This document shows positions 1 to 15,991 of a stretch of 64,000 bases of DNA, piece by piece. The DNA is from Euglena gracilis. Lineage: Eukaryota. How positions within the stretch are numbered: the stretch's first letter is position 1; every line of letters begins with the position of its first letter. The notes beneath the pieces are model-generated. The model saw only the letters and a list, made by a program, of their open reading frames with translations. It searched no databases and had not been told where the DNA came from. Position numbers and translations under genes: made by a program. The stretch lies in the NCBI GenBank assembly GCA_039621445.1, contig CP154954.1:30322395-30386394 (forward strand), in the 5' to 3' direction.

Positions 1-1284
1 ATACTTTTTGGCGCCAAAAATATTTGAAAAGGTGCTATTTTTAGCACTTTTCGCGATTTTTCGACCATTTTTTTTGTGGGTCCCCCAGGACCCCCCCAGG
101 GGATGGGTGGGTGGGGGGACCCCCGTCCCCCCCCCCCCCCGGTCTTAAATAAATCAAGAGCGGGAGAGGGTTGGGTGGGTGGGGGCCATACCATTGCCAA
201 GCACGTCGACCCCCCCCCCATTCCCTGCATGGTGGGTGGGGGGGTCGACCACCCCCCCCCACCCTCTGCATGGTGGGTGGGGGGGGGGTCGACCACCCCC
301 CCCCCACCACCTCTTCCCGTGTTTCCGGGAGCACCAATTTTTGGACCCGAAAAAAATTTTCCGGCGCCGGGTGTTTTTTTGACCCGTTTTGGGACCCATA
401 TAGGGGGTCCCCCCCAAAAAACACCCAAAAACCGCATTTTTTCACACCTTCCAAAAATTCAACATTTTCTCAAAATGTTGATTTTGAGAGGTTTTTGAAG
501 CAAAAAAATGCCATTGAAAGTCCAAAAAATTTCAACGAGAAAAAATGGCAGTAAAATTTGACTGTGCCAAAATTTTGTCCACTTTTTTTGACCTTCGTTT
601 TTTTCACCCCCCTCCTAAAAACTACCAATTTTTAACCCTGAAATTTTTGATATTTTTTTGTGAAAAAAATGTGGGTTTCCATCAAAAAATCATGTGTTTT
701 GGGTTCATTTTTCAAAAAAAAATTCAAAAATCTTCCCGGCCAATATCCCCTTTTTCCTGAAATCGGTGAAAATGCTGTGGTGGGTGGGGGGGGTCGACCC
801 CCCCCACCTCCCGGGTGGGGGGGTCGACCACCCCCCCCCCCCCACCAGGCCTTCCCGTTCTGCCCTGGGGGGGTTGTCAGGATTGGCCGACGTGGCCACC
901 TGGCGCCAAAGGCGCCGGATTTTTTTTTTTTGACCAAAAATGTTTTGATTTTTGGCCAATTTTGGCCGAGTAGCCAAAGTGACCAACCCCCTCCCCCAGG
1001 AAGGAGGTGGGAAGTGGGTGACTGGTTTTTGAAAAGTGACTGATTGGTTTTTTGAAAGTGGAAAGTAAGTAAGGGGGTCGGTAAACAATGGTATGGTCCG
1101 GTCCCTTATGTGGGGGGGGGTGTCCCTGCGGAAGCTTGGGCATGGGTTCCGGAGAGAAGCACCAGAAAAAATTGGGCAAGGCGGTCCCCTGCTGGGCTGG
1201 GTGGGGGGTCTTTAAAAGAAGCCGGGGGAGCACAATTGGTCGGCAATCCATGGCCCCTCTGAAGATTAAATCCTCCTTGCAAGG

Positions 1285-1380
1285 ACTGTGAAGTCTGGCA
1301 ACAAGGTGGTTGTGGAGAAGTCCACAGTGCCTGTTCGCTGCAGCGTTGCCATTGAGCGAGTCTTGAAGGCATGCAGTGCT
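1285..1380 (+). CDS. UGDH: UGDH exon ([32 protein letters not shown])
   Basis: EKSTVPV motif; 5' boundary uncertain by a few nt. Confidence 0.85.
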
Positions 1381-4300
1381 GATCAGGGTTTGACGTAAGG
1401 AGGTCGACCGCGCACCGTTTCGAACAATTGCCTTTTGTAACGATCCCCCCACTTTGCACCTATTGCATGCAAGAAGCTCTGGGAGTGTGGAAGCTGAGTC
1501 ACATGAAAATGAAATGCGAGTGGATGGACCGCTTCTAAGCAGAGGAGGGCACCATAAGGAACCTCCATGACTTTTCTTTTGATGATTGCCTCAAAAAACC
1601 CCTATCTGCGACCCACATAGGTCACACATTGGACCCACATAGGACACACTCTGGACCCACATAGGACACACACCCATAGACCCACATAGGACACACTCTG
1701 GCAATGACCCTCTCTGATTCAACCCTGACGACCCACAACGACCCATTGCTGTAATCATTGGTTATACTCTGTTCACATGTTTTGGGCATTAAAAATGCTC
1801 TCCACTTTCCTTGATTACCCCTCTTTCGTGTCAAGTCCAACAAAAATCACAAATATTGAGAACCAAACCTGGATTTTGAAAGCAGGTTGGCAAATTTAGC
1901 AGCACATCACTCCAGAATTAGGAATATGAAAATTATGGCAAAGAAGCATCTGGAAATTTTCTGGGTGTTTTACCAAACCACCCAGAAAGTTTGTTTGTTA
2001 TAATTTTTTTTTGATTGCCCTATACCCAGAGGGTTGAGTTACCCCATCCATTGGCCATGGGTTTGCTCCATTGTGTCACTGTTGTGTGCCACTGATGGGG
2101 TGTTTGACTCCCAAATTATGTTCTTGTCAATCCCTGGTGTGACACCTCTGCCACATTTGAAGTACTGTCAAACCCAGAGCACACCAGTGCTCCCATTTTT
2201 TTCGCCACCATTTTTCACCGGTCATCCTTTCCTCAAAAGTTGGTTCATGACAATCCTGGTCCATTTTTTTCCCACCGAGAGATGCCTTGTCAGAGTCAAC
2301 ACACCACATCGGTGTCATCAGTCTGAGTGCTGACGTGCTGGCGAGTTTCTTGCCGAGGGGACAGCCATTGAGGATCTTCTGAAACCCGACCGTGTGTTGA
2401 TCAGGTATTATTTTGCATATATCTTTTACATATGCAATATAATATATATATATATATATATATGTATTATATATGCTTATTTTAGGGTCAAATTTTTTCC
2501 AACACTTTTAGGCATTCTAAGGAATTTTAAGGCACAATTTTCCAGGGTGGTCCATTGGCGATCCGGGCATCGAACCAACGTTTTTGATTTCGCACGTGGT
2601 CCAAAATCAAGGAAAGTCGAAAAACGCAGTTTTTGAGTTTTGGTTGGATAGACAATGTTTCAGCGATGCCAGAGATCATTTTTCTTCCCGAAGTCGGCCT
2701 GTTTTGCCGAGATTTTGCGTTTCATTTTTGCTCGGTCGGAGAAGATTCTGCTGGTCTCATTTCTTAAGTCATTTTAACGCATTTTAAGGCATTCTGGCCA
2801 AAATTTAAGGTGCATTTTAAGGTATTTTAAGGCTTTTTCAAGGTACTTTTAATGATGATAATAATTATAATAATGCCTGGCGCTGATCGGTGGTTCTCAA
2901 ACACCCAGCGGGCAGAAGGCCTGTGAGCTCCTCTGCTCTGTGTATGCACGATGGGTGCCGCACAGCTGATTTTGGTTGCACATAGTTTCATTTCAACTTC
3001 CATTTCCATCCATTGATGGTTTCCAGTTTTGTGTGTTTCTTTGATCCTAGGTCCCCTTTTTTGTGTTGGTTTTTGGACAGCTCATTGCGAATTGTTTATT
3101 TTTGCCTTTTTAACAGATCCCAAAAATCCAAAATAAACAAAAAATACAATTTTTTTTTGCTGGACACCCAACATGTTTAAACAAAAAAAATCTTGTGATG
3201 GAGACTCAAGCATGTTTGCACTGCTCAAAAAACGAAAGTTTTTTTTTTGAGAAATTGCATGAACATATTTTCTGTATTTCAACAAGTTTTCAACAAGGCG
3301 GATGATAATTGGGTAAGGCTTTCAAAAAGTTAACTCCAAATGTTGAATGGTTCTTTTTTTTAAATTATTTTTTCTGTTAATCTTTTTGTCAACCTTGTTT
3401 GGCTCAATTTTGGAGAAGATTGGAACAAAATGAGTATGATTTTTTGAAGAAAAAAAATGACAATTCTCAGTGACATTTTAAATGGACACAAGAGGACAAC
3501 TTTTTGCAAGGATGCTTTTTACTGCTGTCTGCAGTGTAATTACGCGGGAAAAATTTCTTCTCTTCTTCTGCCCTGTGCTCGGCACGTGCTGCTTGGATCT
3601 TGCTGGAAAGGCGGTAATTCGGACCCTCCACAAAAACAGTGGGGGCGATGCCTGAAGGGGGGGGTTCCCCCCAGTGCCTGCTATTATATCAAACCCGGGA
3701 GGGGAGCTCCGTTCGTGGTGGCACACCCTGCTGCAGCCCTGCCCAGGGATAGTTGGGAAGCCCTTTGGTTTTGAGGTAGGTAGTTGGGGGGTCCGGACCA
3801 GGGTTTGATATAAGGAGGGCGTACATGGTTTAGGTGGGGGGGGTGTCCCCCCCCCACCCCCCCCCCTCCTGGCCCGCAGGGGGGGGGGTCCGGCCCACCC
3901 CCCCCCCCACCTGCCAGGGGGGTCCGGACCGACCCTCGGGGGTTCCCGGGACCCCCCCAAAAAGGGTCAATTTTTTCCTCTGGCGCTTCGCGCCGAAATT
4001 TTTTTGCATTTTTGGCACATTTTTGCCCAAAAAGTGCCCAAAATGGCACTTTTGGTCGTTTTGGGGGGTCAAAAATTTTCGGCCACCCTGACCGCGCACC
4101 TGTTTAGGTGGGGGGGGTGGGTGTCCCCCCACCCCCCCCCTCCTGGCCCGCACGGGGGGGGCCCGGACCCCCCCCCCCCACCTGTCCTTATATCAAACCC
4201 TGGTCCGGACCCCCCCCCGTTGTTGGAGGGGTGTTCAGCAGGTTCCAAAAAATAGTTGTTTTCCTTCCAGCACTTCACTGGAAAGTGTAATTTTCACCTT

Positions 4301-7300
4301 CTTCCTCACTTTTGAGCATATTGCCCACCCATTTTTGGATGTTTTGGTGTCTTCCACACAAAAAAAAAACGGTCAAAAAGTATTTTTTTTGGGGTTTGGT
4401 CTATTTTCAAATGGAATCAGGGATTTTCCAACAATTTTGGACTGGTATCCGTACCTTTGCCCGTCCACAAATTGAAAAAAAAATTTGGTCCCATTTCAGT
4501 GACGAGGTTGGAGGGAGGGAGTCCGACCCCCCCCCCCCCCCCCCCCGCCCCTCAAGGCCTCCCATGCGTCCCTGGCCCTGCCCCTGACAATCTGATGATG
4601 GCCGGGATTTTTCTTTTTGCAATTCTGGTCCTGAGTGGGCGCGCCAGTCCCCCTCCCCCCAAGGTCAGCTGCCTCTGCGGGAGCGGATCCTGACCACCAA
4701 CCAGTGGTCCAGCGAGCTCAGCAAGCTCACCGCCAACGCGTTTCTGGCGCAGCGCATCTCCTCCATCAACTCCATCTCCGCCGTCTGCGAGGCCACCGGG
4801 GCGGACATCGACGAGGTCGCGTTCGCCATCGGCCGAGACTCTCGCATTGGCCCCAACCGGGCCGATACTGTCGATACAACACAACACAACACAAGGCAAC
4901 TCAACCCAAAACACCACACCACACCACACCACACTACATTACAACACAAACCGCGCCGTCGTTTTGTTGGTTTGTGTTGCACAAAAAGGGCGTTCACACC
5001 AGAGTTGCAACACATTTGCCACAGGAGACATGATTACCCAACAAATTAAAATTTTAAAAGCTCCGGGGTTTACTTCTTAAAAAGGTGACGGGCCCACCCC
5101 AAAATCCCAGTGACTGCTGTCCGAAACGTTGTCATGGACAGGCACCCAGAAGCCAGAAACCCCGGATCTTAACACAGGACCTGCCTGGCCGGAAGTTTCT
5201 CAAGGCGTCCGTTGGATTCGGTGGCTCCTGCTTTCAGAAGGACATCCTGAACCTGGTCTACCTATCCAATTCTTTGGGGCTGCACGAGGTGGGGGATTAT
5301 TGGTACAGCGTGGTGACCACCCCTTCGCTGAGACATTTTTTCACTGCACTGGCAATTGCCAGGAATTCCTTCGCCAGCCAGATCCTCCAACAACATGGCC
5401 GTCAACAATTCTAGAAAATTGAATTTTCTTCTTCCCATCAGGCTTTTCTTTTTAAGTGAGGTGCCGACCCCACGGGGGGGGGGGGGCGGTCACGGGGGGG
5501 TGCTGGGGCAGGCACCAGGCTTGTGCTTAGTGGGGGGCCTACCCCACGGGGGGGGGGGGGGGGTGCTCGGGGCAGGCACCCCAAAGCACCTGGTCCGACC
5601 CTCCCCCCTCGCGGGGGGGGTAGGGTTTTGGGGGGTGCCTGCCCCTAGCAGGCACCCCCCTCCGACCCCGGAAAAGGCCATTTTCAATGAAAGTTTTCTG
5701 GGTCCCCCCCCCGGACACCTATCCCCCCCGGGAGGGTGTGCCTGCTAGGGGCAGGCACGCTATAGCACCCCCCCCTCCCCCCCCCGGTTGGTAAGCACAA
5801 GCATGGCAGGCACCAAATAGCACCCATAGGGGGGTCCCCCCTCCGACCCCAGCGCCGAAGGCATCGGGGGCCCGGAAAAGGCCATTTTCAATGAAAATTT
5901 TCTGGGTCCCCCCCCCCCGCACCCCACCCTATAGCACCCCCCCCTCCCTCTGGTCGGTAAGAAATAGTCTGCTTCCCATTTTTCAACCTTTTTCCCCACA
6001 GCACAAAGTTGTCCAGGAGTTTTGAGCCTTTTTGAAACGGATCGAAAGTGCACCGAGTTCCACTTCCTGTTTCAGCGCAGGAGTGGAAGCAGCGATGAAT
6101 GACTATCAACGCCGGCGCTTTGTGGAGATGATCGTGCGGACCATGTTTGACACAGTGACCAACAAGAAGATTGCAGTGTTGGGCTTTGCCTTCAAGAAGG
6201 ACACGGGCGATACGCGGGAGAGCTCCGCCATTCCAGTGTGCAGCTCGCTCCTGGATGATGGAGCACTGGTCCACTGCTACGCCCAGGGACACGGTGCCAA
6301 GTTGTGTCACCACCTGTTTTTTTTGTTATTCCGAAGATTCTTTTTAAACCCCCCCCCTGCCCACCAACCCCCCTGTTTACTGACCACCCCTGGTCGGGGT
6401 TGCCGGTCAGGGGGTGCGTGCGACACCCACCCCCTGGCCAGGGGTTTGGGTTACCTAAAAAAAAAAGCTTTACAGAAGCAGGGGTTTTGGCACTTTGGTC
6501 TTATGACCATCCCCCAGCAGGAGATTGCAGATATGGGGGTGTGCCACGGTCGGTCGGTAAGGGGCTGGTGGCAGGTTGCAAATTCTGCAAAAATTCGGCA
6601 CCTTCGCTGACAGGTCGTTTCCTCTGGGGGATATTCTTTGTCATTGGACCTGTCAGTGGACCCGGGGGGGGGGGGCCTCCAGTTGGCCAGCAGCCTTTTC
6701 CCAGACCATCTCATCAACAAGTTTTATTTGTTTTCCAGGGACTTCGATTTTTTGATTCGACCCCAGCCGAACCCAGTTCCAGCCGGGGGACCCCAAGGGG
6801 GTCAACCGGTAGCCTTTTCCAACCGGCGTAGGAACTCTTTTGCTCATTGGAAGCAAAAACACGAGGACAAAAAAAATCTGGCTCCGGCGATTCTCTGACT
6901 CACTTTTGTCTATTTTGGCCCATTTTGCACCTCCAAAAGCAAAAAAAAACTACGTTCCGAGAGGAAAAAATTTATTGGGGGTTGGGGCAAAAAAGAAGAA
7001 TATTTTTTGGGGACTGAGGGAGGGCAGAGACTGCCAAAATTGTTTTTTCCTGTTGTTTCCTTTTCTTGTTGGAGGTGTGGGGATGAAAAAAATAAAATGA
7101 AATTCCTCCTCTTTTTGGGCATTGGTGTAGGGGTGGGGAGGAGTGTGGGGAGTGCAGGGGGGGGGGGTGGCGGTCAACCTGCCAAAGATTTTTTTCTTTT
7201 TTCAGATGTAGCTCGCATTCAATATTGGTTACCTGTGAGGAGGCTCTGCAGAGCCTCCGCGGAGGCACCCAGGCAACCAGCCTCTGCTGAGGCTCAGGTA

Positions 7301-10300
7301 ACCAGCCTCCACAGAGACTTGGGTAACCAAAAGTCAGGATTCCACACAGGGGTTTTTTTAGTCGTGGACCCCCGGGGGGGGAGGGTGGGTGGGTCCGGCC
7401 CCGGGGGGGGTCCCCCTGGAGGGGGGTGGGATTTCCTTTTCGGCGCCGAAGGTGCCGAAATTTTTTGAAAAGGTGCTTTTTTTAGCACTTCTCGCGATTT
7501 TTCGGCCATTTTTTTGTGGGTCCCCCGGGACCCCCCCCCCCCCGGCCCGGGGGCCCCCCCCAGGGGGGTGGGGACCCCGCCCTCGGTCTTAAAAATCCCC
7601 TGATTCCACATTTGCACGGGCCCCTGCTGGCCTCCCCCTCTTTGGCTGAATTGACGCCCTAATTGCAATAGAGTCCCTGACCCTATTCCTTCAATTAACC
7701 ACAAATACATTTGATTTTGGGACTTTTTGTTCATACAATCACAATTTTGATGCAATACAAACTTTGGCCAAAGGTGGTTCTGAAACCTAAACATAGAGGT
7801 CGCATGGGCCCACCAAAGGGTCGGGCCGACCTCTGGATGAAAATCTTTTAAAGGGGGGGGTGATGCAATGGCTTGGCCATGGTTGACCATGGCCGGAAGC
7901 CCCCCCCCCCCCGATAGAAGCGCGGGGCTGCTGCAAGCGCAGGGTGAATAAAGGACAATCCAAATCCAAATACACTCATGCTGCCGAAGGCGGCGGTCCA
8001 CCACAAACGCACCCCCATTTGATGAGTTTTTGAAAGGAGATCAACAAAAATTGCAGCCAGGGTCCAAATAGAAGCGCACCTAGGCTTCCATTGGGGGATG
8101 GGTTTATCCTAGTTGAGTGACTCTTGGACCCTGTTGGCCAATCAAACAACGCTTCAACTGCTGCATTGGAATCAGGGCGTCGCTTGATGACCCCCTCCCC
8201 CCCGGAGTCCAGCTCAGAGGCTGGAAAACTTGGACTGGCTGGAAATAGGCTGCTGGCTGACCTCCAAGGGTACTGGAATTGGGTCCATCCTGGGGTCGAA
8301 CCAGGTGCAAGGAAAAATCGAAACTGCAAAAACCCCCAGAAGCTGCTAATTATGCAAACAATTGATCTTTTCGACCCCAAAAATTTGCCCTGGCCCCAGG
8401 TAACCCCTGGGTTCCCCCGGAGGTGAGCCGGCCCAAAGCCAACCCATTTTTTTTGCCAATTTTTGGCCCATTTTTGAACCAGGATTTTTTTTAAGTCAGA
8501 AGATCCGGGTGGGTGGGTGGGTGGGTCCTGGACCCCCCCCCCACCCGGGTCCCAGGCAGGAGACATGGGTATGGGTTTCAGCGCAAAGCGCCGAAAGTTT
8601 TTTTCTTTGGGAAATGGCCTCAGACGCATCCGGGGTCCCCCCCCCCCCCCCGCGTCCCACGCCAAGCGGGGTCTTAAAAAGAAGCCTGCCCACCCTGGTT
8701 CAAGGCTTTCTAAGACTTTCAAGGCATTTTGGCCCAAAAATTTAAGGCACATTTTAAGGCATTTTAACGTTTTTAAAGACACCTTAAAAAATGATGATGC
8801 CTGGTTATGGGCAGGCAACCACAGCACAATGCACCCCCCCAGGTTGGTGAAAATAAAACCTGCCCCAAGGTTTCCCATACGACCACAAGCCAGGTAAGGC
8901 GGTTACCCTTGACGTTCCCAACTGGAGTTCTTACCTCTGGGCTACACGAGCCTTGGCACCTATCCCTGCCATGACCCTAAGGTCACTGAGGAGCAAATGC
9001 TTCAAGACCTGAACGAGGTGGCAGAGGGCAACCAGCACCTGCTGAACCAAATAAAGTCTAATTACCGGATTGAGAAGTCGGCCGTGGAGGCGTGTAAGAA
9101 TGCCCACGCCATTGTGGTGTTGGCGAGGGAAGTGCAAATCGCCACCTCACCACCCCACTGATCAGTTGTTTTTTTTTGTGTCAGATTTGTTGGGCTTGGG
9201 GGCCATGATGTCGGCCCAAACAAACAGCTCCCACGGTTGATTGTGACCCCGATTGAAGATTGTCCCTGGAAATTTGACTCTCTCTGTTCAGCTTTCGCAG
9301 AGTCCCCACCAGGACGGCGCTGAACCCTCTCCCAGTAAAGCTTGCTGACCCGGAAGGTTGAACTTCCCTACCGAAGACCGAATGGGACGAGTTCAAGATG
9401 CTGGATTACCAGCAGATCTTCAAGGAGATGACGAAGCCCGCCTTCCTGTTTGATGGGCGCGGGTACCTGGACCTGAAGGTCAGGCCATTGCTCCGGGTGG
9501 GGGATACGATGAACCTCCCTTCTGTGTCCAGACCGCATGGTAATACCTCCCCGGCGGCAACTGTCACCCCCTCAACTTTTGGCAATTTGCCAATGGCAAA
9601 AAAAAATGCACCAAAAGATGGAGTCTTTGGAAGTTTTTGTTGTTGATCAATCTCTGGATGTACGCATGAACTCGGGATTTGAATGCTCAAGAATGTGCTT
9701 GAAGGGATCAGAAGTGTTTTCAAGAGATCGGAAAGTTACTGATTATTCGTCTACCCCAGTGGGCAAATGTCACCCCCTCTGCCCGCCTTTTTGCCGTCCC
9801 CCAATATGTCAGCCCCCCCCCCCACATCTGCTGGCTAAATTGTTGTGTGACAATTGCTGGGGGGGGCAAGGTTCAATATACGGAGGGTGTGCGGGGTTTA
9901 GGTGGGGTGGGGTGCCTCCCCTCCTGGAACAGGGGGTCGGACCATGCCATTGCTTAACACCTGTCCAACTACCCCCCCCCCCCCCCGGGGGTGACTGATT
10001 GGTTTTTTCAGAGGGAACTGACTGGTTTTCTGGCCAAGACCCCCCGGGGGGGCAGGCCCGAAAATGAAAAGTGGCTGGCCTGGCACCAAAGGCGCTGGAA
10101 TTTTTTTGGATTTTTTGAGATTTCTTGGCAAATGTTCATTGCATATTCAAGAGTGCCCCCCCCCCCCCGCCCGGGGGGTAAAGTGACTGACTGGTTTTTC
10201 GGAAAAAGTGACTGACCGGTTTTTTCAGAGTGGAAAGTGACCCCCCGGGTCGCCAAGTAATGGTATGGGTCGGACACCCTCCCCCTGCCAAGGGAGGGGT

Positions 10301-10720
10301 TCCAGACCAACCCTCCCCCAAAAAATCAAAAAACATAGTTTAATTTTCCTTCTGACACTTTTCACTTTGCGCTGGAAAATTTTGACAAATTTCGCCCAAA
10401 AAGTGTCCAAAATGACATGTTTGCCATTTGGGGTTAATTTTTTTTGGCCCGCCGCTTCGCGCTGGCCGAAAATCAGTCAGCCGGACTGCGCCACTGTTTA
10501 GGTGGGGGGGGCACCCCACCTCCCCCCTCCTGCACCGGAGGGGAGGTCCGACCCCCCCCCCCCCCCCCCCTTATATCAAACCCTGGGGGGGGGGGGGCAG
10601 CCCTCTCCAGAAGTTTCCCGCACGGCTGAGTGGAGAAGCCGCGGCCTGGAGCCGGCCCTGCGGGAAATCGGCTTTGATGTCTTTTCCATCGGCCGGACAA
10701 AGGCCCAGCGGTACAATTGA
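1285..10720 (+). CDS. UGDH: UDP-glucose 6-dehydrogenase, 5'-partial, spliced: join(~1285-1380,2141-2176,2343-2398,2885-2959,4677-4854,5193-5314,6091-6280,8973-9121,9376-9477,10654-10720)
   Basis: The joined exons give one open frame (1071 nt, ending TGA at 10718-10720) with colinear UGDH motifs: [62 protein letters not shown] (catalytic Cys), [40 protein letters not shown]. The N-terminal exons lie upstream of the window; the first exon start is approximate. Confidence 0.95.
1381..2140 (+). other. Nonconventional intron 1 (3+4 geometry)
   Basis: GAT-CAGGGTTTGAC ... GTCAATCCCTG-GTGT; 10/11 paired; no GT-AG. Confidence 0.85.
2141..2176 (+). CDS. UGDH: UGDH 36-nt exon ([12 protein letters not shown])
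   Basis: Supplies the conserved LSNP preceding EFLAEG; both flanking introns have terminal stems. Confidence 0.85.
2177..2342 (+). other. Nonconventional intron 2
   Basis: AGCACACCAGTGCTC pairs with GAGTGCTGACGTGCT (11 WC + 2 GU of 15); CAC at +4..+6, GTG at -8..-6. Confidence 0.85.
2343..2398 (+). CDS. UGDH: UGDH exon ([19 protein letters not shown])
   Basis: Conserved motif. Confidence 0.92.
2399..2884 (+). other. Nonconventional intron 3
   Basis: GAT-CAGGTATTATT ... AATAATGCCTG-GCGCT. Confidence 0.9.
2885..2959 (+). CDS. UGDH: UGDH exon ([25 protein letters not shown])
   Basis: Conserved motif, in frame with neighbouring exons. Confidence 0.9.
2960..4676 (+). other. Nonconventional intron 4
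   Basis: GCA-CAGCTGATTTTGG ... CCAAGGTCAGCTG-CCTCT (11 WC + 2 GU). Confidence 0.9.
3799..4202. mobile_element. MITE with CAG...CTG ends, nested in intron 4
   Basis: TIR CAGGGTTTGATATAAGGA / TCCTTATATCAAACCCTG; flanked on both sides by GTCCGGAC (8 bp, palindromic). Confidence 0.85.
4677..4854 (+). CDS. UGDH: UGDH exon ([32 protein letters not shown]...DSRIGP)
   Basis: Highly conserved central helix. Confidence 0.95.
4855..5192 (+). other. Nonconventional intron 5
   Basis: AAC-CGGGC ... GCCTG-GCCGG; short 5-bp stem; no GT-AG. Confidence 0.8.
5193..5314 (+). CDS. UGDH: UGDH exon ([24 protein letters not shown]...YWYSVV)
   Basis: Catalytic GGSCFQKD motif. Confidence 0.95.
5315..6090 (+). other. 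Nonconventional intron 6
   Basis: GAC-CACCCCTTCGCTGAGACA ... TGTTTCAGCGCAGGAGTG-GAAGC (15 WC + 1 GU of 18). Confidence 0.9.
6091..6280 (+). CDS. UGDH: UGDH exon ([10 protein letters not shown]...[15 protein letters not shown]...VHCY)
   Basis: Conserved C-terminal domain motif. Confidence 0.95.
6281..8972 (+). other. Nonconventional intron 7 (3+4 geometry)
   Basis: GCC-CAGGGACACGGTGCCAAG ... CTTGGCACCTATCCCTG-CCAT. Confidence 0.9.
7347..7602. mobile_element. MITE with perfect 8-bp TSD, nested in intron 7
   Basis: TIR CAGGGGTTTTTTTAG / CTTAAAAATCCCCTG; TSD ATTCCACA at 7339-7346 and 7603-7610; related copy at ~1-160. Confidence 0.9.
8973..9121 (+). CDS. UGDH: UGDH exon ([10 protein letters not shown]...[12 protein letters not shown])
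   Basis: DPKV and AHAIVV motifs. Confidence 0.92.
9122..9375 (+). other. Intron 8, nonconventional stem; a 1-nt shift reads GC...AG
   Basis: AGGGAAGTGCAA (9126-9137) pairs with TTGAACTTCCCT (9358-9369), 11/12. Confidence 0.85.
9376..9477 (+). CDS. UGDH: UGDH exon ([34 protein letters not shown])
   Basis: TEW and FDGR motifs. Confidence 0.93.
9478..10653 (+). other. Intron 9, nonconventional stem; overlaps an in-frame GT...AG alternative
   Basis: GGT-CAGGCC ... GGCCTG-GAGCC. Confidence 0.8.
9867..10585. mobile_element. MITE of the 3799-4202 family with secondary insertions, nested in intron 9
   Basis: Left end CAAGGTTCAATATACGGAGGG, right end CTTATATCAAACCCTG; G-runs of at least 8 on both flanks. 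Confidence 0.7.
10654..10720 (+). CDS. UGDH: UGDH last exon ([21 protein letters not shown])
   Basis: LREIGF..SIG C-terminal motif and stop codon. Confidence 0.9.
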
Positions 10721-10826
10721 GCACTATCCTTATCCATCTGCCCCTGATGGCGTCCGCTCATTCCGACGTCCCCTCTCACCGGACTGCCCCTCTCAGATGG
10801 GGAAGGCTGCATGTGTGTGGGTGTGG

Positions 10827-10831
<5 letters not shown>

Positions 10832-10858
<27 letters not shown>
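10832..10858. repeat. (TG)n microsatellite in probable UGDH 3' UTR
   Basis: Seen directly. Confidence 0.9.
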
Positions 10859-10861
<3 letters not shown>

Positions 10862-10928
10862 TGTCACAACAGAAATGTACTGCTCCTGAGAATTCCCCCT
10901 CCCCAGGCACCAAGTGGGGCTGGTTTTG

Positions 10929-11355
10929 CAGGGGGGGGAAATTGATATCCGCAATTTTTCCGCAATTTCCGCAATTTTTCCGCAATTTTTTTTGCATTTT
11001 TTTTCGCAGAATTTTTTCCCACCACCGAAGATGGAAGATGAGTTCAAGCCATTCTTCAAATGGATCAACAGGTGTGCTATTGTGTTTTGTCCCCCCCCCA
11101 GTTTACCAATTTTTCTCACAGGTGCACCACTGGTCACAGGATTGGGTGCGTCCTACCTGTGCAAGAACTTCAAGCGTGTTGATTTGTGCTCGCCTGCATC
11201 GACGTGGGTGTTGTGGTGTTCTGAACCTCACAATTGAAAAATTTCTAAGTCCCCTCAAGCAGAAATGTGTATATTCCGGATATCAATTTTTCCGCAATTT
11301 TCCACAGTTTTTCCGCAATTTTTCCGAAGGCCTCCGATATCAATTCCCCCCCCTG
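10929..11355. mobile_element. MITE with 7-bp TSD
   Basis: TIR CAG(G)nAAATTGATATC / GATATCAATT(C)nTG; TSD GGTTTTG. Confidence 0.88.
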
Positions 11356-13644
11356 GGTTTTGGACGGAAGGTCCCTACACTGCGGTTCCAATTGCGATTA
11401 CACTGTGATTTCCTTTGGACGTCCTTTTTTTGCATTTTCTTTCCAGAGGCTTGCAAATGCAATTAACCCCCCCCCCCAAATAATACCCCCCCCCCCCCCG
11501 GTTTATTATTTGGGCACCCGAAGTCGGGGTCCAGGGGGGTTTATTATTTGGGCAAAAATTTCGAAGACAAAAATTGACCCGAAAACCCCTCCACAGGCTC
11601 CAATGGTCACTTTTTTGGCATTTTGGGGCTTTTTTTTGAAAATTGGGTGCTTTTTTGGCAGGGCTCCATCAAATTTTTTTCCAAAGCGTTCAGAAAATTG
11701 GGGCATTTTCTAGAGGAATTTTGCAGAATGCGTATACCAGAACTAACAAAAGAGCAATAGTCCGACATGTTAGGGATATGGTGATCAAACACTTCCCAAC
11801 ACCGCACGGGATGGGTCTGGGTGGGGGGGGGGAAGTGTTTGCCAGACGAGGCACTCCAGGGCACCGCGAGCCTGAAAGTGGTCCCCCAAATAAGACCTGA
11901 CCCAAAATTTGGGCCAGGTCCCAAAAAGCGTCACTTTCCAGGTTTCCAAAAACACCCAAAATTTTTCATCTGTGCTCTACGCCATGTGTCAACATGTGTC
12001 ATGTGTGTTAAAAATTGAATTCCCCCAGTGTTGTTGTGCTTCAAAAGTGTCAAATAATTGTAATCCAGGAAAAATTTTCATCTCCAGCGCTTTGCACCGT
12101 CAGTGGGAGTCTGGAATTGGCGGGGGGGTTTTTTTATAGATTTTTTCTTTGTCGGCCCAGTGGGGGGGGGGCTTCCTTTTGGGGAGGTCTTACAGTAATA
12201 ATAGTGGGCATAATAGGACACCTGAAAATTGGTGGGTCAAACCTAGGGCAGAACGGGAATCGGCCAAACCGCCAGGGTGGTGGTGTGGGGGGGGGGGTCG
12301 ACTACCCCCCCCCCCTGCATTGGCGGTGGTGATGGTGTGCACACACCATCAGGGGGACCCTGGACCCCCCCCCCCCCCGGGGCTGGTGGCCAGGCCGGAC
12401 GAAGGGGTAAAGGGCACCAAAAAGGCAGCCACAGTGCACACAGGGGGCTGGCTGGTGGCTGTTTTCCCGTGTCCAGCAAAATGGCTAGCCAGTGGACCCC
12501 TGCCTCCCGGGGCTTAAGCAATGGCCTGACCAGATGGTCACCCCCGGCCGGGGGCTTAAGCAATGGTCGGTATATAGGGGTGGTCGGTGGACAAGAGGAC
12601 AGGGTGGGTACCCCCCCTTTGCCCAACGACCACCCCTAACCCCCGGTCGGGGGTTGTAGATCAGGGGGTGTGTATGACCGCCCCCCGTGGTCGGGGTTGT
12701 AGGTGACCTTGGGAAAACAGGGGTTTTTTCAGGTCAGGGTGTGTATGCCCCCCCCCCCCCGTCGGGGGTTGTAGGAACCCGGTCGGTGAGCAAAAGCACC
12801 TCGAAACTGACATTGACCCGGAAATTTTTGGTTTTGAGGACGGGCAAACACTCAGAACGCCGGTTCAGGTTGCCGCCTGAACCGGCGTTCTGGACACGTG
12901 TTTGCATCGAAGTCAGGGTCAAGATAAAATCCTTACCCTGACCCTACTCCTGAAATAGCCCAAAATTTTTGTCTGTTATCTCACGACAGACTCTCCCCCC
13001 AAAACCCTTGGGCCCGGAAGGGAATAGCCCCTTCTGAGGGCTTTGAGCGGATTCTGGGGTGACCATCCTGGGGGGTCGGGCTGACTTTGGGATGGGACAC
13101 GGACCTCTGGGTCGCTTCAAAAATGCCTGATTTTGCTTTAAAAATGAAACAGAATGCTCATTTTTTGAAATTTTTTGAACGCTCCTCATGCGGAAAACAC
13201 CAAACCATTAAAAAAATTGGCAATATGCTCAAAAATGAGGGAGGAAGTTGTTTTTTTGTTCATTTTCCGGCGCGCAGCGCGGGAAAAAATTGCCATTTTT
13301 GAAACCTGCTGAGGAGGGTCTGGATACACCCCAACATCCAGGGGGGGGGGTCGGCAACCCCCCACCGCCTGATTCGATACCGACGGGCTTCCCATCAATC
13401 CCTGTGGAGGTTTGGTTCTACATAAGGAGGGTATCACCCCTTCTTGACTGCCAGACCCCGCTGTGGCCGGACCCCACCCCAAGGTCAAGTTTTATTTAGG
13501 CGATTTGCACCGAAATAATTTTGGAAATTTTCGCAAGTTTGCCAAAGGTGCCCAAAACGGCATCTGGGTTGATTTTGGGGTTTCGGAAAAATTTTGGCCA
13601 AAAGTCGGTCATCTTGGCTGCATGTCTGTTTGTTTGAACCAGGG

Positions 13645-13884
13645 CAGGGCTGTGCGGGAATACCCGCAACCCTATGGGTGGTGGGTGGGGGGGGGTCGAC
13701 CAGTCCCCCTTCCTGGTGGTTGGGGAGGGGCCGACCCCCCCCCCACCAGGCCTTCCTGTATATCCAGGGGCGCTGATTTTTTGTTGAAATTGTCCTTCGG
13801 CGCCAAAGGAGTTTTTCCCTGCGCGGGTGCTGTGGTGGTTGGGGGGGGGTTCGACCCCCCCCCAGGCTTTCCTGTACAACCGTA
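13645..13884. mobile_element. Probable MITE
   Basis: Degenerate TIR CAGGGCTGTGCGGGAA / TTCCTGTACAACCGTA; flanks AACCAGGG / GACCAGGG (7/8). Confidence 0.5.
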
Positions 13885-15991
13885 GACCAGGGGATATATT
13901 TTTAAGGTGTAAATTTTCAAATTTTAAGGCGTTTTTCAGGGTTTTTAAAGGCATTGTTCCTGCTTGCCTTTTTTGGGGGCGATTATTGGACCTGTTGGAA
14001 CCTGAAGCTCAATATCCTCCCCCAATGGCTCTTTCCCGTGCTTCCCAGGACCAAGCCTTCCCCGTTCCATGCCCGCCTGTTGCTCCTCCGGGAACAACCT
14101 CACCTCCCTAGAACGATCTCCCAAGGTATCTCAGGTATCTCTGGTGATCAATCATTGGGGGTGGGTGGGAGAGGTCCTTGTGAAATTCCCATTCAGAGAA
14201 TTCTTCAGGCATCCTCATCAGCAGGATTCCACTTTGCTGTGGACCCCTATGCTCCCCAATCCAAATGTCGGCCGAAATGGATCTGAGGATTTGCCAAACC
14301 AGAGATCCAGACAAAGTTCTTTGGGGGTGCTGCAACGTCAGTCAGGTTGGTTTCTCCAAATGCCACACGATGCCTTGTGGCCGGGCAAGAAGATGTGTTT
14401 TGTACCAGGCTGCAATTTTTACTGTGTGTCAGCCGAAGACTGCCAAGCTGTGTCCGAACCGGTCACCGTAGTTGGCAGGCTGCTTCCGATCGACCGGCTG
14501 TTGCAGACAGGCGGCCTTCTCATTGGTATTTGTTCGATGGTGGGTTTGAGAGAACCGTTTGAATGCTGTGTCACAGGTAGCTTTGAGGACCAGAGGTCCA
14601 CCAGCCAGAACTTGCCAGCCAGAACTTGCCAACCAACCTCTAATTTTTTCCCCCTCTAGCTCTTTAATTTTTGACGCCTTTCTCAGGTAAATGCTCAAAC
14701 AGACTTTCTTTCATTTAGGGTGCCGCGGTGAAGTCTGCTGCGGCACAAAAAAAATTCCGCGGCGCACAATCAAATTTTTGCCGCGCACCCGCGGCGCACC
14801 TGAAACGCTGCCGCGGCGCACCAACAACGCACCTGCAGCACAGCAATGCCGCGGGGATGGCTATGCCGCGGTGCACGCAATGCACAGAAAGAAATCTTCT
14901 GCGGCACACACGGTCACAAAATTTCCTGTGCCGCGGCGCAGAAAAAAAAAATTCCGCGGCGCACTAAATGAAAATCTGTTTTCAAATGCACTTTTGACAA
15001 ATTTGAGGGAGGAGGAAAAGATGGAAGACTTTGGATTATACTCTGACTCCAACCCACCTGTGTCCCAGGGAGGTGGGGAGAGCATGGCCACCCGGACAGA
15101 GTTCATTTTCTCTCCACATGCCAATTTGTCTTCAATTACATTTGGTCTGAACAGGGTGAGCTGCAGACGCCCACACCAGGGGTTTTTTCAGTCTTGGACC
15201 CCCTCCTGGGGGGGGGGAGGGGGGGGTCCCTTGGACCCCCTCCTTTGGGGGGGAGTTGGGGGTTGGGGGTAGGGGCCGGTGGGTATTTCAGGCCAGCCCG
15301 GCATCGCAGGTCGGACCCATTGGGGGAGGTCCACAAGCCAGCTGGCTTGAAAAAAGCTGGCGGGGCCCCACCCTTCGACAACGAAGCAGGCTCAGAGCCA
15401 GAAAACTTGGGTTGCTGGAAAAAAAGCCGCTGGCCACCTTTTTAAAGGCCTTGGGGGGTGGGCTCAGACTAGAAATTTGGACTGGCTTACCCCCCCCCCC
15501 CGAGGGGGGGCTTGACCCTGGCTGGACCTGAGGTGGGCCGGCCTGGGTCGAAATCGGACAATTGCCTGAAAAATGACCTGCAAGACAGTTTTGAACGTCT
15601 GACAACCCCCCCCCAAAACGCCCAAGACACCCCCCAAGGCACCATTTGTGGCCATTTTTGCACACCCTTTCCAAAATTTTCGGTGTTTTGCGCCTAAAAT
15701 TTTGAGCTGGACCTTGCAAAAAGGGGCTGGCTGGCAGGGCCAGCACCCCCCTTGGGGTGCTGCTGCAGCTGGGCTGGGCCAAAATCGGGGCTGGCAGCAG
15801 CAGCCCCCCCTTCCCCCCCCCCCCCAGGGGGTCTTAAAGAGATGCATGCTGCTGGCTGGTGGACCCCCCCCAAAGGGCCCCCCATCTGGAGTTGAGCCAA
15901 GCTTCTACCAGGCTGAAACCTGGGAGGGGGTCTTGGAATGCCCTGGTGGTGGGCCAAAAAGTGCTCAAAGATGGCCTTTTCTGGGCTTATG

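What the first reader, a model, noticed from the sequence alone, without database searches (positions are those of the whole stretch)
1381..10653. All nine introns of a housekeeping gene fit the stem-ended nonconventional type
Seven introns have no usable GT/GC-AG pair, and all nine show complementary ends (5-18 bp) with a purine at intron +1 and at the next exon start. This matches the known euglenid nonconventional intron consensus, whose excision machinery is unknown. Stem substitutions co-vary (CAG/CTG, CAC/GTG, CGG/CTG). Standard gene finders would miss the gene.
Basis: partly seen in the sequence, partly recalled or inferred. Interest (0 to 1): 0.78.

Follow-up and report, generated by a model that had tools for sequence, protein, structure and literature searches.

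The report
Euglena UGDH gene with nonconventional introns
This is a working Euglena sugar-metabolism gene (UDP-glucose dehydrogenase) whose introns are almost all of the stem-ended "nonconventional" type, a real but already well-described and very common feature of Euglena genomes.

Summary
A euglenid UDP-glucose 6-dehydrogenase gene lies on the + strand, and its in-silico spliced product matches a transcript-derived protein at 320 of 323 residues. RNA contigs and raw RNA reads show eight of the nine joints directly. The ninth, intron 3, follows from contig-length arithmetic and protein continuity. A DNA run shows none of the eight listed joints.

At the RNA-defined joints, 8 of 9 introns allow no GT/GC-AG reading; only intron 8 can be read as GC-AG. 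Eight of 9 have at least 3 pairs at +4..+6 with a 5-6 nt 3' spacer and a purine-starting exon. Random junction sets average 1.4, and 0 of 2000 reach 8.

This is the published Euglena nonconventional-intron code, 5'-N3CDG-/-CH'GN5-6|R (PMC12501133). The strict code is met by 4 of 9.

Corrections: the gene is not complete in the window. It has at least two further introns, one of them a 3.3-kb 3'UTR intron of the same type.

Such introns make up 57-72% of Euglena introns, and mutational and synthetic-intron tests are already published. It is a verified new member of a known kind, of low novelty.

Side lead: the 5' end of intron 1 copies the terminal inverted repeat of a MITE-like element nested in other introns.

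The parts
1277..1380 (+). UGDH exon; first exon within the window. Upstream exons lie outside the window and the preceding intron ends at 1276.
   Evidence: tblastn to P0004 residues 97-136. In one search, 263 X21 reads carry a loose end before 1277 that continues into unseen upstream exon sequence.
1381..2140 (+). Intron 1 (760 nt), nonconventional. GAT-CAG...CTG-GTGT|G with a 4-nt 3' spacer; the alternative register 1382..2141 gives AGG/CCT with a 6-nt spacer. Bases 1384-1403 copy a MITE terminal repeat.
   Evidence: Joint 1379->2140 with 3 slidable bases, 277 X21 reads, X1 and X2 contigs, 0 in DNA run X20. Registers, helix, terminal-repeat match.
2141..2176 (+). UGDH exon (36 nt)
2177..2342 (+). 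Intron 2 (166 nt), nonconventional. GAG-CAC...GTG-CTGGC|G, i.e. a CAC/GTG motif outside the strict published code.
   Evidence: Joint 2176->2343, 231 X21 reads, 0 in DNA.
2343..2398 (+). UGDH exon
2399..2884 (+). Intron 3 (486 nt), nonconventional. GAT-CAG...CTG-GCGCT|G, which fits the strict code.
   Evidence: The joint is not among the rows shown. It is inferred from the gapless P0004 match, the 5-nt direct repeat TGATC and the X1 967-nt contig length arithmetic.
2885..2959 (+). UGDH exon
2960..4676 (+). Intron 4 (1717 nt), nonconventional. GCA-CAG...CTG-CCTCT|G, fits the strict code, with a 13-bp end helix. It contains the MITE-like element at 3799-4202.
   Evidence: Joint 2959->4677, 277 X21 reads.
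4677..4854 (+). UGDH exon
4855..5192 (+). Intron 5 (338 nt), nonconventional. AAC-CGG...CTG-GCCGG|A; fits the code as a CGG/CTG (G-U) variant.
   Evidence: Joint 4854->5193, 150 X21 reads.
5193..5314 (+). UGDH exon
5315..6090 (+). Intron 6 (776 nt), nonconventional and non-slidable. GAC-CAC...GTG-GAAGC|A, a CAC/GTG motif. 17 of 19 positions pair from +3 to +21.
   Evidence: Joint 5314->6091 with 0 slidable bases, 314 X21 reads.
6091..6280 (+). UGDH exon
6281..8972 (+). Intron 7 (2692 nt), nonconventional. GCC-CAG...CTG-CCAT|G with a 4-nt spacer; the alternative register 6282..8973 gives AGG/CCT with a 6-nt spacer before A.
   Evidence: Joint 6280->8973, 252 X21 reads and the X2 contig.
8973..9121 (+). 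UGDH exon
9122..9375 (+). Intron 8 (254 nt), hybrid or ambiguous. There is an 8-bp end helix at +5..+12 in the nonconventional register, but +4/-6 is a G/A mismatch (GAG/CTA). The register 9123..9376 reads GC...AG.
   Evidence: Joint 9121->9376 with 1 slidable base, 381 X21 reads.
9376..9477 (+). UGDH exon
9478..10653 (+). Intron 9 (1176 nt), nonconventional. GGT-CAG...CTG-GAGCC|G, fits the strict code. A nearby GT..AG pair is not used. It contains a second MITE-like copy at about 9867-10585.
   Evidence: Joint 9477->10654, 457 X21 reads.
10654..10795 (+). Last coding exon; stop codon at 10718-10720, then the start of the 3'UTR.
   Evidence: Loose ends behind 10793-10795.
10796..14068 (+). 3'UTR intron (3273 nt), nonconventional geometry. 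GAT-GGG...CCC-GTTCC|A with a 10-bp Watson-Crick helix at +4..+13.
   Evidence: The X1 and X2 contigs continue from 10795 into letters that match the window from 14069. Helix.
3799..4202 (.). MITE-like element nested in intron 4. The terminal repeat is CAGGGTTTGATATAAGGA, and GTCCGGAC flanks it on both sides.
   Evidence: 31-nt perfect inverted arms at 3786-3816 / 4185-4215. Family matches.

Best explanation
The region is the 3' three-quarters of an expressed nuclear UDP-glucose 6-dehydrogenase gene of a Euglena gracilis-type euglenid.

Its nine in-window coding introns, and a tenth in the 3'UTR, are removed by the euglenid nonconventional splicing pathway. In the pre-mRNA, bases from about +4 of the intron pair with bases from about -6 of its 3' end. 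The cuts fall 3 nt upstream of that helix on the 5' side and 5-6 nt downstream on the 3' side, just before a purine. The exons are then joined.

Shown here: the exact RNA joints, the absence of GT/GC-AG at 8 of 9, the helix in the fixed register, and near-complete removal at steady state.

Taken from the literature or inferred: the helix and spacers are the recognised signal (knock-in mutagenesis in PMC12501133). The intron is said to leave as a full-length circle rather than a lariat (stated in PMC11282704 and PMC12501133, citing a J Mol Biol 2021 paper I did not read). My inference is that the enzyme is a structure-measuring endonuclease plus ligase rather than the standard spliceosome.

Intron 8 is a hybrid that either pathway could remove.
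For: Gene identity:
- The exon 6091-6280 hits UGDH proteins. The best euglenid hit, P0004 (source name EG_transcript_14324), is 100% identical over that exon and carries Pfam PF03721/PF00984/PF03720.
- In-silico splicing gives one open frame of 358 aa ending at a stop. It is 320 of 323 identical and gapless to P0004, and gapless over 358 columns to P0006.

Splicing:
- Eight joints are seen in raw RNA reads (150-457 reads each) and in RNA contigs of one or two other runs. None is in DNA run X20, whose contigs instead bridge exon-intron borders (tables 5 and 8).
- X21 depth is 0-0.2 in unique intron bins against 25-180 in exon bins.

Intron type:
- There is no GT/GC-AG in any compatible register for 8 of 9.
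- The helix starts at +2..+5 with the 3' partner offset by 2 (7 of 9) or 1 (2 of 9).
- The geometry test gives 8 of 9 against a null mean of 1.39, with 0 of 2000 sets reaching 8. The energy sum is -72.1 against -25.5 +/- 7.6.

Published code and mutational proof: PMC12501133. Consensus CCAGG at +3..+7 and CCTG at -9..-6 in E. gracilis: PMC11170887.
Against: - Only 4 of 9 introns meet the strict published code. Introns 2 and 6 carry CAC/GTG. Introns 1 and 7 need either a 4-nt 3' spacer or an AGG/CCT motif. Intron 8 has a mismatch at +4/-6 and a possible GC-AG.
- The intron 3 joint was not displayed in the read table.
- Nothing here shows circles, the order of removal, or the enzyme.
- Runs X1 and X2 are only guessed to be RNA by the tool; X21 is on record as RNA.
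- The organism name rests on a source label and on euglenid relatives, not on a named genome.
Confidence: 0.92

Rival explanations
1. Mixed gene: eight nonconventional introns plus one conventional spliceosomal GC-AG intron. Intron 8, read as 9123..9376, would be removed by the ordinary spliceosome, and its end helix would be incidental.
For: - The register 9123..9376 is compatible with the RNA joint and reads GC...AG.
- It has G at +5, the only prominent 5' feature reported for E. gracilis GC-AG introns (PMC11170887).
- The CDG/CH'G motif is absent: it has GAG/CTA with a mismatch at +4/-6.
- The last 20 nt contain a C-rich stretch, CTTCCCTACC.
Against: - It has the strongest 10+10 terminal pairing energy of the nine, -10.6 kcal/mol, with an 8-bp helix in the exact nonconventional register. 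By contrast, 35% of GT-AG introns have zero pairing energy in PMC11170887.
- GC-AG introns are only 659 of 28,337.
- PMC12501133 argues that hybrid introns are probably handled by the noncanonical machinery.
Confidence: 0.35
2. The nonconventional introns are removed by a spliceosome, standard or modified, whose splice-site choice is guided by the end helix. No separate endonuclease-ligase system would be involved.
For: - No trans-factor is known (PMC12501133 Discussion).
- PMC11170887 notes that noncanonical introns in other species can be spliceosome-dependent and asks for experiments.
- PMC11282704 lists 'a nonconventional, additional spliceosome' as an option.
Against: - Literature passages read report no U1 complementarity, no polypyrimidine tract, and circular full-length products without a lariat.
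- Strict spacer-length dependence measured from a helix is typical of structure-measuring nucleases. That last point is my inference.
Confidence: 0.25
3. Fragmented pseudogene or assembly artefact: the UGDH pieces are not joined into a functional mRNA.
For: The window allele differs from P0004 at 3 of 323 residues. It is the minority allele in RNA reads, for example about 30% at 9399.
Against: - All joints are seen at high depth in RNA.
- The spliced frame is open to a conserved stop.
- Independent DNA contigs of X20 cover the exon-intron borders (table 8).
Confidence: 0.01

Closest known systems
Euglenid nonconventional (NC) introns, as defined by Milanowski et al. 2014/2016 and by the splicing code of Nomura et al. 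2025 (5'-N3CDG-/-CH'GN5-6|R)
   Same: - No GT/GC-AG borders in 8 of 9.
- Pairing of +4..+6 with -8..-6.
- A purine at intron +1 (9 of 9) and at the downstream exon start (9 of 9).
- A pyrimidine before each cut in 7 of 9 at each cut.
- Short direct repeats that make 8 of 9 junctions slidable.
- Lengths of 166-2692 nt.
   Different: - Only 4 of 9 satisfy the strict CDG/CH'G + N5-6 code.
- Two introns use CAC/GTG and the 3'UTR intron uses GGG/CCC. In the sections I read, the pair swaps that preserve pairing were reported for the middle motif position only.
- Two introns have 3+4 nt spacers in the CAG register.
Intermediate / hybrid introns of euglenids (GT/GC ends plus a nonconventional end structure)
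   Same: Intron 8 allows GC-AG and also has an 8-bp end helix in the nonconventional register. [quoted passage not shown]
   Different: Intron 8 lacks the CDG/CH'G motif that defines the 'both' class in PMC12501133, so by that scheme it would simply be counted as conventional.
Transposon-derived introns (introners; MITE-derived introns of Micromonas, Fritillaria, dinoflagellates) as reviewed in PMC11282704
   Same: - Terminal inverted repeats and junction direct repeats.
- The 5' end of intron 1 is an 18-of-20 copy of the terminal repeat of a repeated element in the same window.
   Different: - Those introns are removed by the spliceosome using sites partly created by the target-site duplication. 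Here the excision signal is the inverted repeat itself.
- For eight of the nine UGDH introns no source element was recognised.
Structure-defined, spliceosome-independent RNA splicing (tRNA bulge-helix-bulge introns; HAC1/XBP1 cleavage by Ire1). This comparison is recalled, not tested here.
   Same: The cut sites are set by a fixed distance from a helix rather than by a border sequence. Exon ligation releases an intron that can circularise.
   Different: No bulge-helix-bulge or Ire1 stem-loop motif is present. The spacers are 3 and 5-6 nt next to one long-range helix. No enzyme is known. This is an analogy for how it may work, not a membership claim.

Membership tests
Euglenid nonconventional introns | Borders are not GT/GC-AG in any register compatible with the mRNA | tested here: met
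   8 of 9 coding introns, and the 3'UTR intron, have none. Intron 8 can be read as GC-AG.
Euglenid nonconventional introns | Base pairing of +4,+5,+6 with -8,-7,-6 that brings the intron ends together | tested here: met
   - 6 of 9 pair all three positions with a 5-nt spacer.
- Introns 1 and 7 do so with a 4-nt spacer, or with a 6-nt spacer in a shifted register.
- Intron 8 pairs 2 of 3 and then 6 more.
- With a 5-6 nt spacer and a purine at the exon start, 8 of 9 pass against a null mean of 1.39; 0 of 2000 null sets reach 8.
Euglenid nonconventional introns | Strict genetic code 5'-N3CDG-/-CH'GN5-6|R (PMC12501133) | tested here: inconclusive
   4 of 9 meet it (introns 3, 4, 5, 9) and 5 of 9 do not. 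The paper itself finds the code in only 61.2% of NC introns, so failing it does not exclude membership.
Euglenid nonconventional introns | Purine at the first base of the downstream exon | tested here: met
   9 of 9 (G in 7, A in 2), and A for the 3'UTR intron.
Euglenid nonconventional introns | Purine at intron +1, and a pyrimidine at the last base of the upstream exon and of the intron | tested here: met
   +1 is a purine in 9 of 9. The last base of the upstream exon is a pyrimidine in 7 of 9, and the last base of the intron in 7 of 9. The published rates are 51, 49 and 49 of 55 (PMC4770533).
Euglenid nonconventional introns | Excised as a full-length circular RNA, without a lariat | not tested
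   The read table showed only the 15 best joints and listed no back-joint.
Euglenid nonconventional introns | The host is a euglenid (or diplonemid) | tested here: met
   The best relatives are a protein with source name EG_transcript_14324 (100% on the exon, 320 of 323 overall) and Eutreptiella gymnastica UGDH at 82%. Reading 'EG' as Euglena gracilis is my recollection.
UDP-glucose 6-dehydrogenase (Pfam PF03721 / PF00984 / PF03720) | The three UDPG/MGDP dehydrogenase domains in order, with full-length similarity to UGDH | tested here: met
   The Pfam domains are precomputed for P0004 and for its relatives. The spliced product aligns without gaps to P0004 residues 97-420 and to the C-terminus of P0006. 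The N-terminal NAD-binding part (residues 1-96) is not in the window.
hAT-like MITE (for the element at 3799-4202 and the ends of intron 1) | Terminal inverted repeats, an 8-bp target-site duplication, and many copies | tested here: inconclusive
   - Terminal repeats are present: 31-nt perfect arms.
- Flanks are 8 of 8 identical, but the sequence GTCCGGAC is a palindrome, and the second copy is flanked by G8. Neither proves a duplication.
- There are only 4 terminal-repeat matches in the window.
- The hAT assignment rests on recalled features (CAG-type termini, 8-bp duplication).

The most novel reading that the evidence does not exclude
Two linked readings go beyond what I found in print.

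(1) Natural, efficiently spliced introns with CAC/GTG (introns 2 and 6), GGG/CCC (3'UTR intron) and GAG/CTA (intron 8) at the motif position suggest that the nonconventional machinery reads helix geometry, not the CDG/CH'G letters. The published code would then be only the commonest case of a wider structural rule.

(2) Intron 1 is a decayed copy of an identifiable MITE-like family with termini CAGGGTTTGATATAAGG...CCCTG. A nested copy of that family carries 8-bp flanking repeats. The fixed 3 + 5 nt spacers of the code add up to one 8-bp target-site duplication. The pathway would therefore remove, at RNA level, exactly 'element plus one duplication', that is, it would be an RNA-level precise excision system for one transposon class.
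Probability: 0.22. Interest if true: 0.6.

Novelty: new member of a known kind. Interest (0 to 1): 0.22.

Why it matters
As a finding it mainly confirms that the window is ordinary Euglena nuclear DNA. Nonconventional introns dominate there, their cis-code has been dissected genetically, and a gene with 8-9 of 9 such introns is expected at a rate of a few per cent to about a quarter of nine-intron genes. That estimate is my own, from the published fractions of 0.57 and 0.718 and assuming independence between introns.

It has two uses.
- It gives a clean, RNA-verified set of ten natural introns in one gene, half of which fall outside the strict published code. These are ready test cases for widening that code.
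- It gives one concrete link between an intron end and a repeated inverted-repeat element, which bears on the still-open question of where these introns come from.

The excision enzyme, the real open problem, is not brought closer by this locus.

Tried and rejected
- **Whole genome of the window:** not held. [quoted passage not shown]
- **Run index:** no RNA holder listed. RNA evidence came from laying X21 (on record as RNA) and X1/X2 (RNA only by the tool's guess).
- **Metagenome scan for more MITE copies:** the scan with the 17-nt MITE terminus gave 55 loci, all single matches. The following 43 nt were at chance identity (median 11 of 43, best 14), so no further copies of the element family were obtained.
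- **blastn of intron 1 against the window:** no similarity to the element beyond the short terminal stretch at E <= 1e-3.
- **Target-site duplication test on the nine introns:** the first 3 intron bases resemble the first 3 bases of the next exon (19 of 27; partner-shuffled mean 13.3; 21 of 5000 shuffles reach 19). The last 5 intron bases do not resemble the last 5 bases of the upstream exon (16 of 45 against a shuffled mean of 15.9; 2713 of 5000 shuffles reach it). An 8-bp duplication is therefore not visible in these introns as a set.
- **Window-wide scan for CAG...CTG elements:** asking for at least 16 of 20 complementary terminal bases gave 16 pairs. Only the 3799-4202 element had 8 of 8 identical flanks.
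- **Pfam scan of 41 long ORFs elsewhere in the window:** only reverse-transcriptase and RNase H fragments passed the curated cut-offs, so no second gene was available for comparing intron types.
- **Canonical GT..AG reading of intron 9 (9479..10651):** rejected. It would add one residue. RNA shows the joint 9477->10654, and relatives have the shorter length.
- **Literature searches:** searches for a described Euglena MITE family matching intron ends and for Euglena UGDH introns (0 papers) found nothing specific. Supplementary datasets of PMC12501133 and PMC11170887, which may list these very introns, could not be seen.

Full report
**What is there**

Stop-to-stop frames on the + strand between about 1270 and 10720 carry ten pieces of a UDP-glucose 6-dehydrogenase.

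The piece at 6095-6289 finds UGDH proteins. The closest include a 420-aa protein with the source name EG_transcript_14324 (P0004), 100% identical over the exon. Several unnamed proteins (P0005-P0008, 84-92%) come next, and Eutreptiella gymnastica UGDH is at 82%. All carry Pfam PF03721/PF00984/PF03720.

tblastn of P0004 places residues 97-420 on ten collinear blocks. Residues 1-96 have no match anywhere in the window. The gene therefore starts outside the window.

No whole genome is held for this window.

**RNA evidence**

I laid two contig sets that the tool guesses to be RNA (X1, X2), one raw-read run on record as RNA (X21, about 5% of it read) and one DNA-like run (X20) on 1100-11500.

Eight joints appear, each with the number of bases that fit on either side:

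| Joint | Slidable bases |
|---|---|
| 1379->2140 | 3 |
| 2176->2343 | 3 |
| 2959->4677 | 2 |
| 4854->5193 | 2 |
| 5314->6091 | 0 |
| 6280->8973 | 1 |
| 9121->9376 | 1 |
| 9477->10654 | 2 |

- X21 supports them with 150 to 457 reads each.
- X1 and X2 carry seven of them in single high-depth contigs; 6280->8973 is in X2 only.
- X20 has depth 0 for every one of them. Its contigs instead run across exon-intron borders (table 8, records 12-19).

The intron 3 joint was not among the 15 rows printed (578 rows were not shown). Three things support it:
- The 967-nt X1 contig is accounted for exactly (168+122+178+76+55+37+103+228) only if 486 nt are removed between 2397 and 2884.
- P0004 runs across the joint without a gap.
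- A 5-nt direct repeat, TGATC, sits at both borders.

Joining the exons in silico gives one open frame of 358 aa ending at the stop at 10718-10720. It is 320 of 323 identical to P0004 and gapless to the C-terminus of P0006.

X21 depth is 0 to about 0.2 in unique intron bins and 25-180 in exon bins. Removal is therefore efficient, and the gene is expressed.

**Intron type**

For every register the RNA allows, I checked the borders.
- Eight of nine introns have no GT/GC-AG reading. Intron 8 has one (9123..9376, GC...AG).
- The GT..AG pair near intron 9 that would be tempting from sequence alone is not used. It would also add a residue that relatives lack.

Fixing the register by a C at +4 gives introns 1381-2140, 2177-2342, 2399-2884, 2960-4676, 4855-5192, 5315-6090, 6281-8972, 9122-9375 and 9478-10653.

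In that register:
- **Motifs.** The trinucleotide at +4..+6 and its 3' partner are CAG/CTG in five introns, CAC/GTG in two, CGG/CTG in one and GAG/CTA in one (intron 8).
- **Spacers.** The 3' spacer is 5 nt in seven introns and 4 nt in two (introns 1 and 7). Those two can also be read one base to the right as AGG/CCT with a 6-nt spacer.
- **Helix length.** The contiguous helix, counting G-U pairs, is 4 to 13 bp. With interruptions it reaches 17 of 19 positions in intron 6.
- **Border bases.** Intron +1 and the first base of the next exon are purines in 9 of 9 each. In 8 of 9 they are the same base, a consequence of the sliding repeat. The base before each cut is a pyrimidine in 7 of 9 at each cut.

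**Is it more than chance?**

I used random junctions of the same lengths and sliding freedom, drawn from both strands of the window.
- The summed 10+U7+10 folding energy is -72.1 kcal/mol against -25.5 +/- 7.6. None of 400 sets reaches it.
- The stricter geometry asks for three pairs from +4, a 5-6 nt 3' spacer and a purine at the exon start. It is met by 8 of 9 real introns against a mean of 1.39. None of 2000 sets reaches 8.
- With five pairs required, the count is 5 of 9 against a mean of 0.28.
- Individually some introns are weak. For intron 6, 22% of random pairs reach its 10+10 energy, so the case rests on the set and on the fixed register.

**Comparison with what is known**

This is the published picture.
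- *PMC4770533 (passages read):* pairing of +4..+6 with -8..-6, mostly CAG/CTG; a purine at intron +1 in 51 of 55 and at the downstream exon start in 55 of 55; pyrimidines before the cuts.
- *PMC11170887 (abstract, sections 4 and 10 read):* 28,337 E. gracilis introns, of which 4,498 + 11,653 are nonconventional. The consensus is CCAGG at +3..+7 and CCTG at -9..-6.
- *PMC12501133 (abstract, Results and Discussion read):* 71.8% nonconventional introns in E. agilis and a comparable share in E. gracilis. By knock-in mutagenesis and fully synthetic introns it defines 5'-N3CDG-/-CH'GN5-6|R, met by 61.2% of nonconventional introns. It states that the trans-acting factors are unknown.
- *Circular products:* reported according to PMC11282704 and PMC12501133, which cite a J Mol Biol 2021 paper that I did not read.

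The third, cDNA of this gene, is in effect supplied.

Against the strict code, 4 of 9 introns pass (3, 4, 5, 9) and five do not. This is within the published 61.2%.

**Intron 8**

It has the most stable terminal pairing of the nine (-10.6 kcal/mol; 8 bp at +5..+12 in the standard register). It also has a G/A mismatch at +4/-6, a possible GC-AG, G at +5 and a C-rich 3' stretch. It is best called a hybrid. I give 0.35 to plain spliceosomal removal.

**Mechanism**

I commit to the following.
1. The pre-mRNA ends pair.
2. A still-unknown activity cuts at fixed distances from the helix: 3 nt on the 5' side and 5-6 nt on the 3' side, before a purine.
3. The exons are ligated and the intron leaves as a circle.

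The joints and the geometry are shown here. The functional role of the helix and spacers is shown in PMC12501133 for other introns. The endonuclease-ligase nature is my inference, with about 0.6 against 0.25 for a spliceosome variant.

**Beyond the finding**

- *Further introns.* The gene has more introns than nine. Reads running into 1277 carry upstream exon sequence (263 reads in X21), so an intron ends at 1276. It shows neither AG nor a CTG at the expected distance. Its 5' end is outside the window.
- *3'UTR intron.* After the stop codon, the X1 and X2 contigs leave the window at 10795 and continue with letters found at 14069. This defines a 3273-nt 3'UTR intron. It has the standard geometry, with a 10-bp Watson-Crick helix at +4..+13 and A at the exon start, but GGG/CCC at the motif position. 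X21 reads clip at 10793 (276 reads) and 10794 (196 reads) instead. I could not resolve this.
- *High-copy repeats.* The introns are full of repeats. X20 word depth reaches 10^5-10^6 in some bins, against about 30 in unique parts.
- *MITE-like element.* One such element (3799-4202, in intron 4) has 31-nt perfect inverted arms and termini CAGGGTTTGATATAAGGA...CCCTG, with GTCCGGAC on both sides. A second copy lies at about 9867-10585 in intron 9.
- *Link to intron 1.* The first 20 nt of that terminus occur four times in the window at up to 3 mismatches, against 0.01 expected. One of the four is 1384-1403, exactly +4 to +23 of intron 1, with 2 mismatches. The 3' end of intron 1 is a weaker mirror copy. 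This fits the published but unproven idea that these introns descend from MITE-like elements (PMC3935182, PMC12501133).
- *Limits of that link.* It also suggests that the 3 + 5 nt spacers equal one 8-bp target-site duplication. The support is thin. The one clean 8-of-8 flank is a palindrome and the other is G8. Across the nine introns only the 3-nt half of the expected repeat is above a partner-shuffled null (19 of 27, p about 0.004), while the 5-nt half is not (16 of 45). A metagenome scan for more copies gave only chance matches.

**Verdict**

The case is an ordinary, well-verified member of a known and abundant intron class.

Searches found no paper on the introns of Euglena UGDH (0 papers), nor one naming a Euglena repeat family that matches intron ends.

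Noticed in passing
window 10796-14068: A 3273-nt intron in the UGDH 3'UTR, with nonconventional geometry: 3-nt and 5-nt spacers, a 10-bp helix at +4..+13 and A at the exon start. It has GGG/CCC where the code expects CDG/CH'G. It holds a (GT)n run near 10815-10865 and high-copy repeats.
   Followed up: partly
window 10793-10795 / 14069-14071: The 3'UTR joint differs between runs. The X1 and X2 contigs join 10795 to 14069. X21 raw reads clip after 10793 (276 reads) and 10794 (196 reads) and continue with letters that start at 14071. This could be imprecise splicing in a UTR, strain differences, or a clipping effect.
   Followed up: no
window 1-1276: The 3' end of a further UGDH intron lies at 1276 (263 X21 reads carry upstream exon letters). 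There is no AG and no CTG at -8..-6 there, and the exon starts with T unless the joint slides. The 5' end and the first ~96 codons lie outside the window.
   Followed up: partly
window 3786-4215, about 9867-10585, and 1384-1403: A MITE-like family with terminus CAGGGTTTGATATAAGG. One copy has 31-nt perfect arms flanked by GTCCGGAC on both sides, and a second copy is flanked by G8. Intron 1 of UGDH starts (+4..+23) with an 18-of-20 copy of this terminus and ends with a weaker mirror copy.
   Followed up: partly
window 3529-4222, 5264-5957, 7346-7692, 9775-11500: Intron segments rich in G/C-run palindromes (for example GGGGGGTCGACCCCCC types) have DNA word depths of 10^4-10^6 in run X20, against about 30 for unique sequence. 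They also appear in RNA contigs, so they are very high-copy repeats that are transcribed somewhere.
   Followed up: no
window 2894, 2942, 4836, 6259, 9399, 9460: The window's UGDH allele is the minority in RNA: about 30% of X21 reads carry it, and it is absent from the X1/X2 contigs and the X20 DNA contigs. 9399 T>C changes Met to Thr, as in P0004. Several alleles or strains are expressed.
   Followed up: no
window 53029-54409: Retroelement fragments on opposite strands: reverse transcriptase (RVT_1, E 2.6e-23) on + at 53029-53832, and RT-linked RNase H (E 1.1e-22) on - at 53711-54409. No other Pfam match passing its curated cut-off appeared among the 41 long ORFs tested outside the UGDH gene.
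   Followed up: partly
the nine UGDH intron borders: The first three intron bases repeat the first three bases of the next exon in 19 of 27 positions (partner-shuffled mean 13.3; 21 of 5000 shuffles reach 19). The last five intron bases do not repeat the end of the upstream exon (16 of 45). The direct repeat at these junctions is one-sided.
   Followed up: yes
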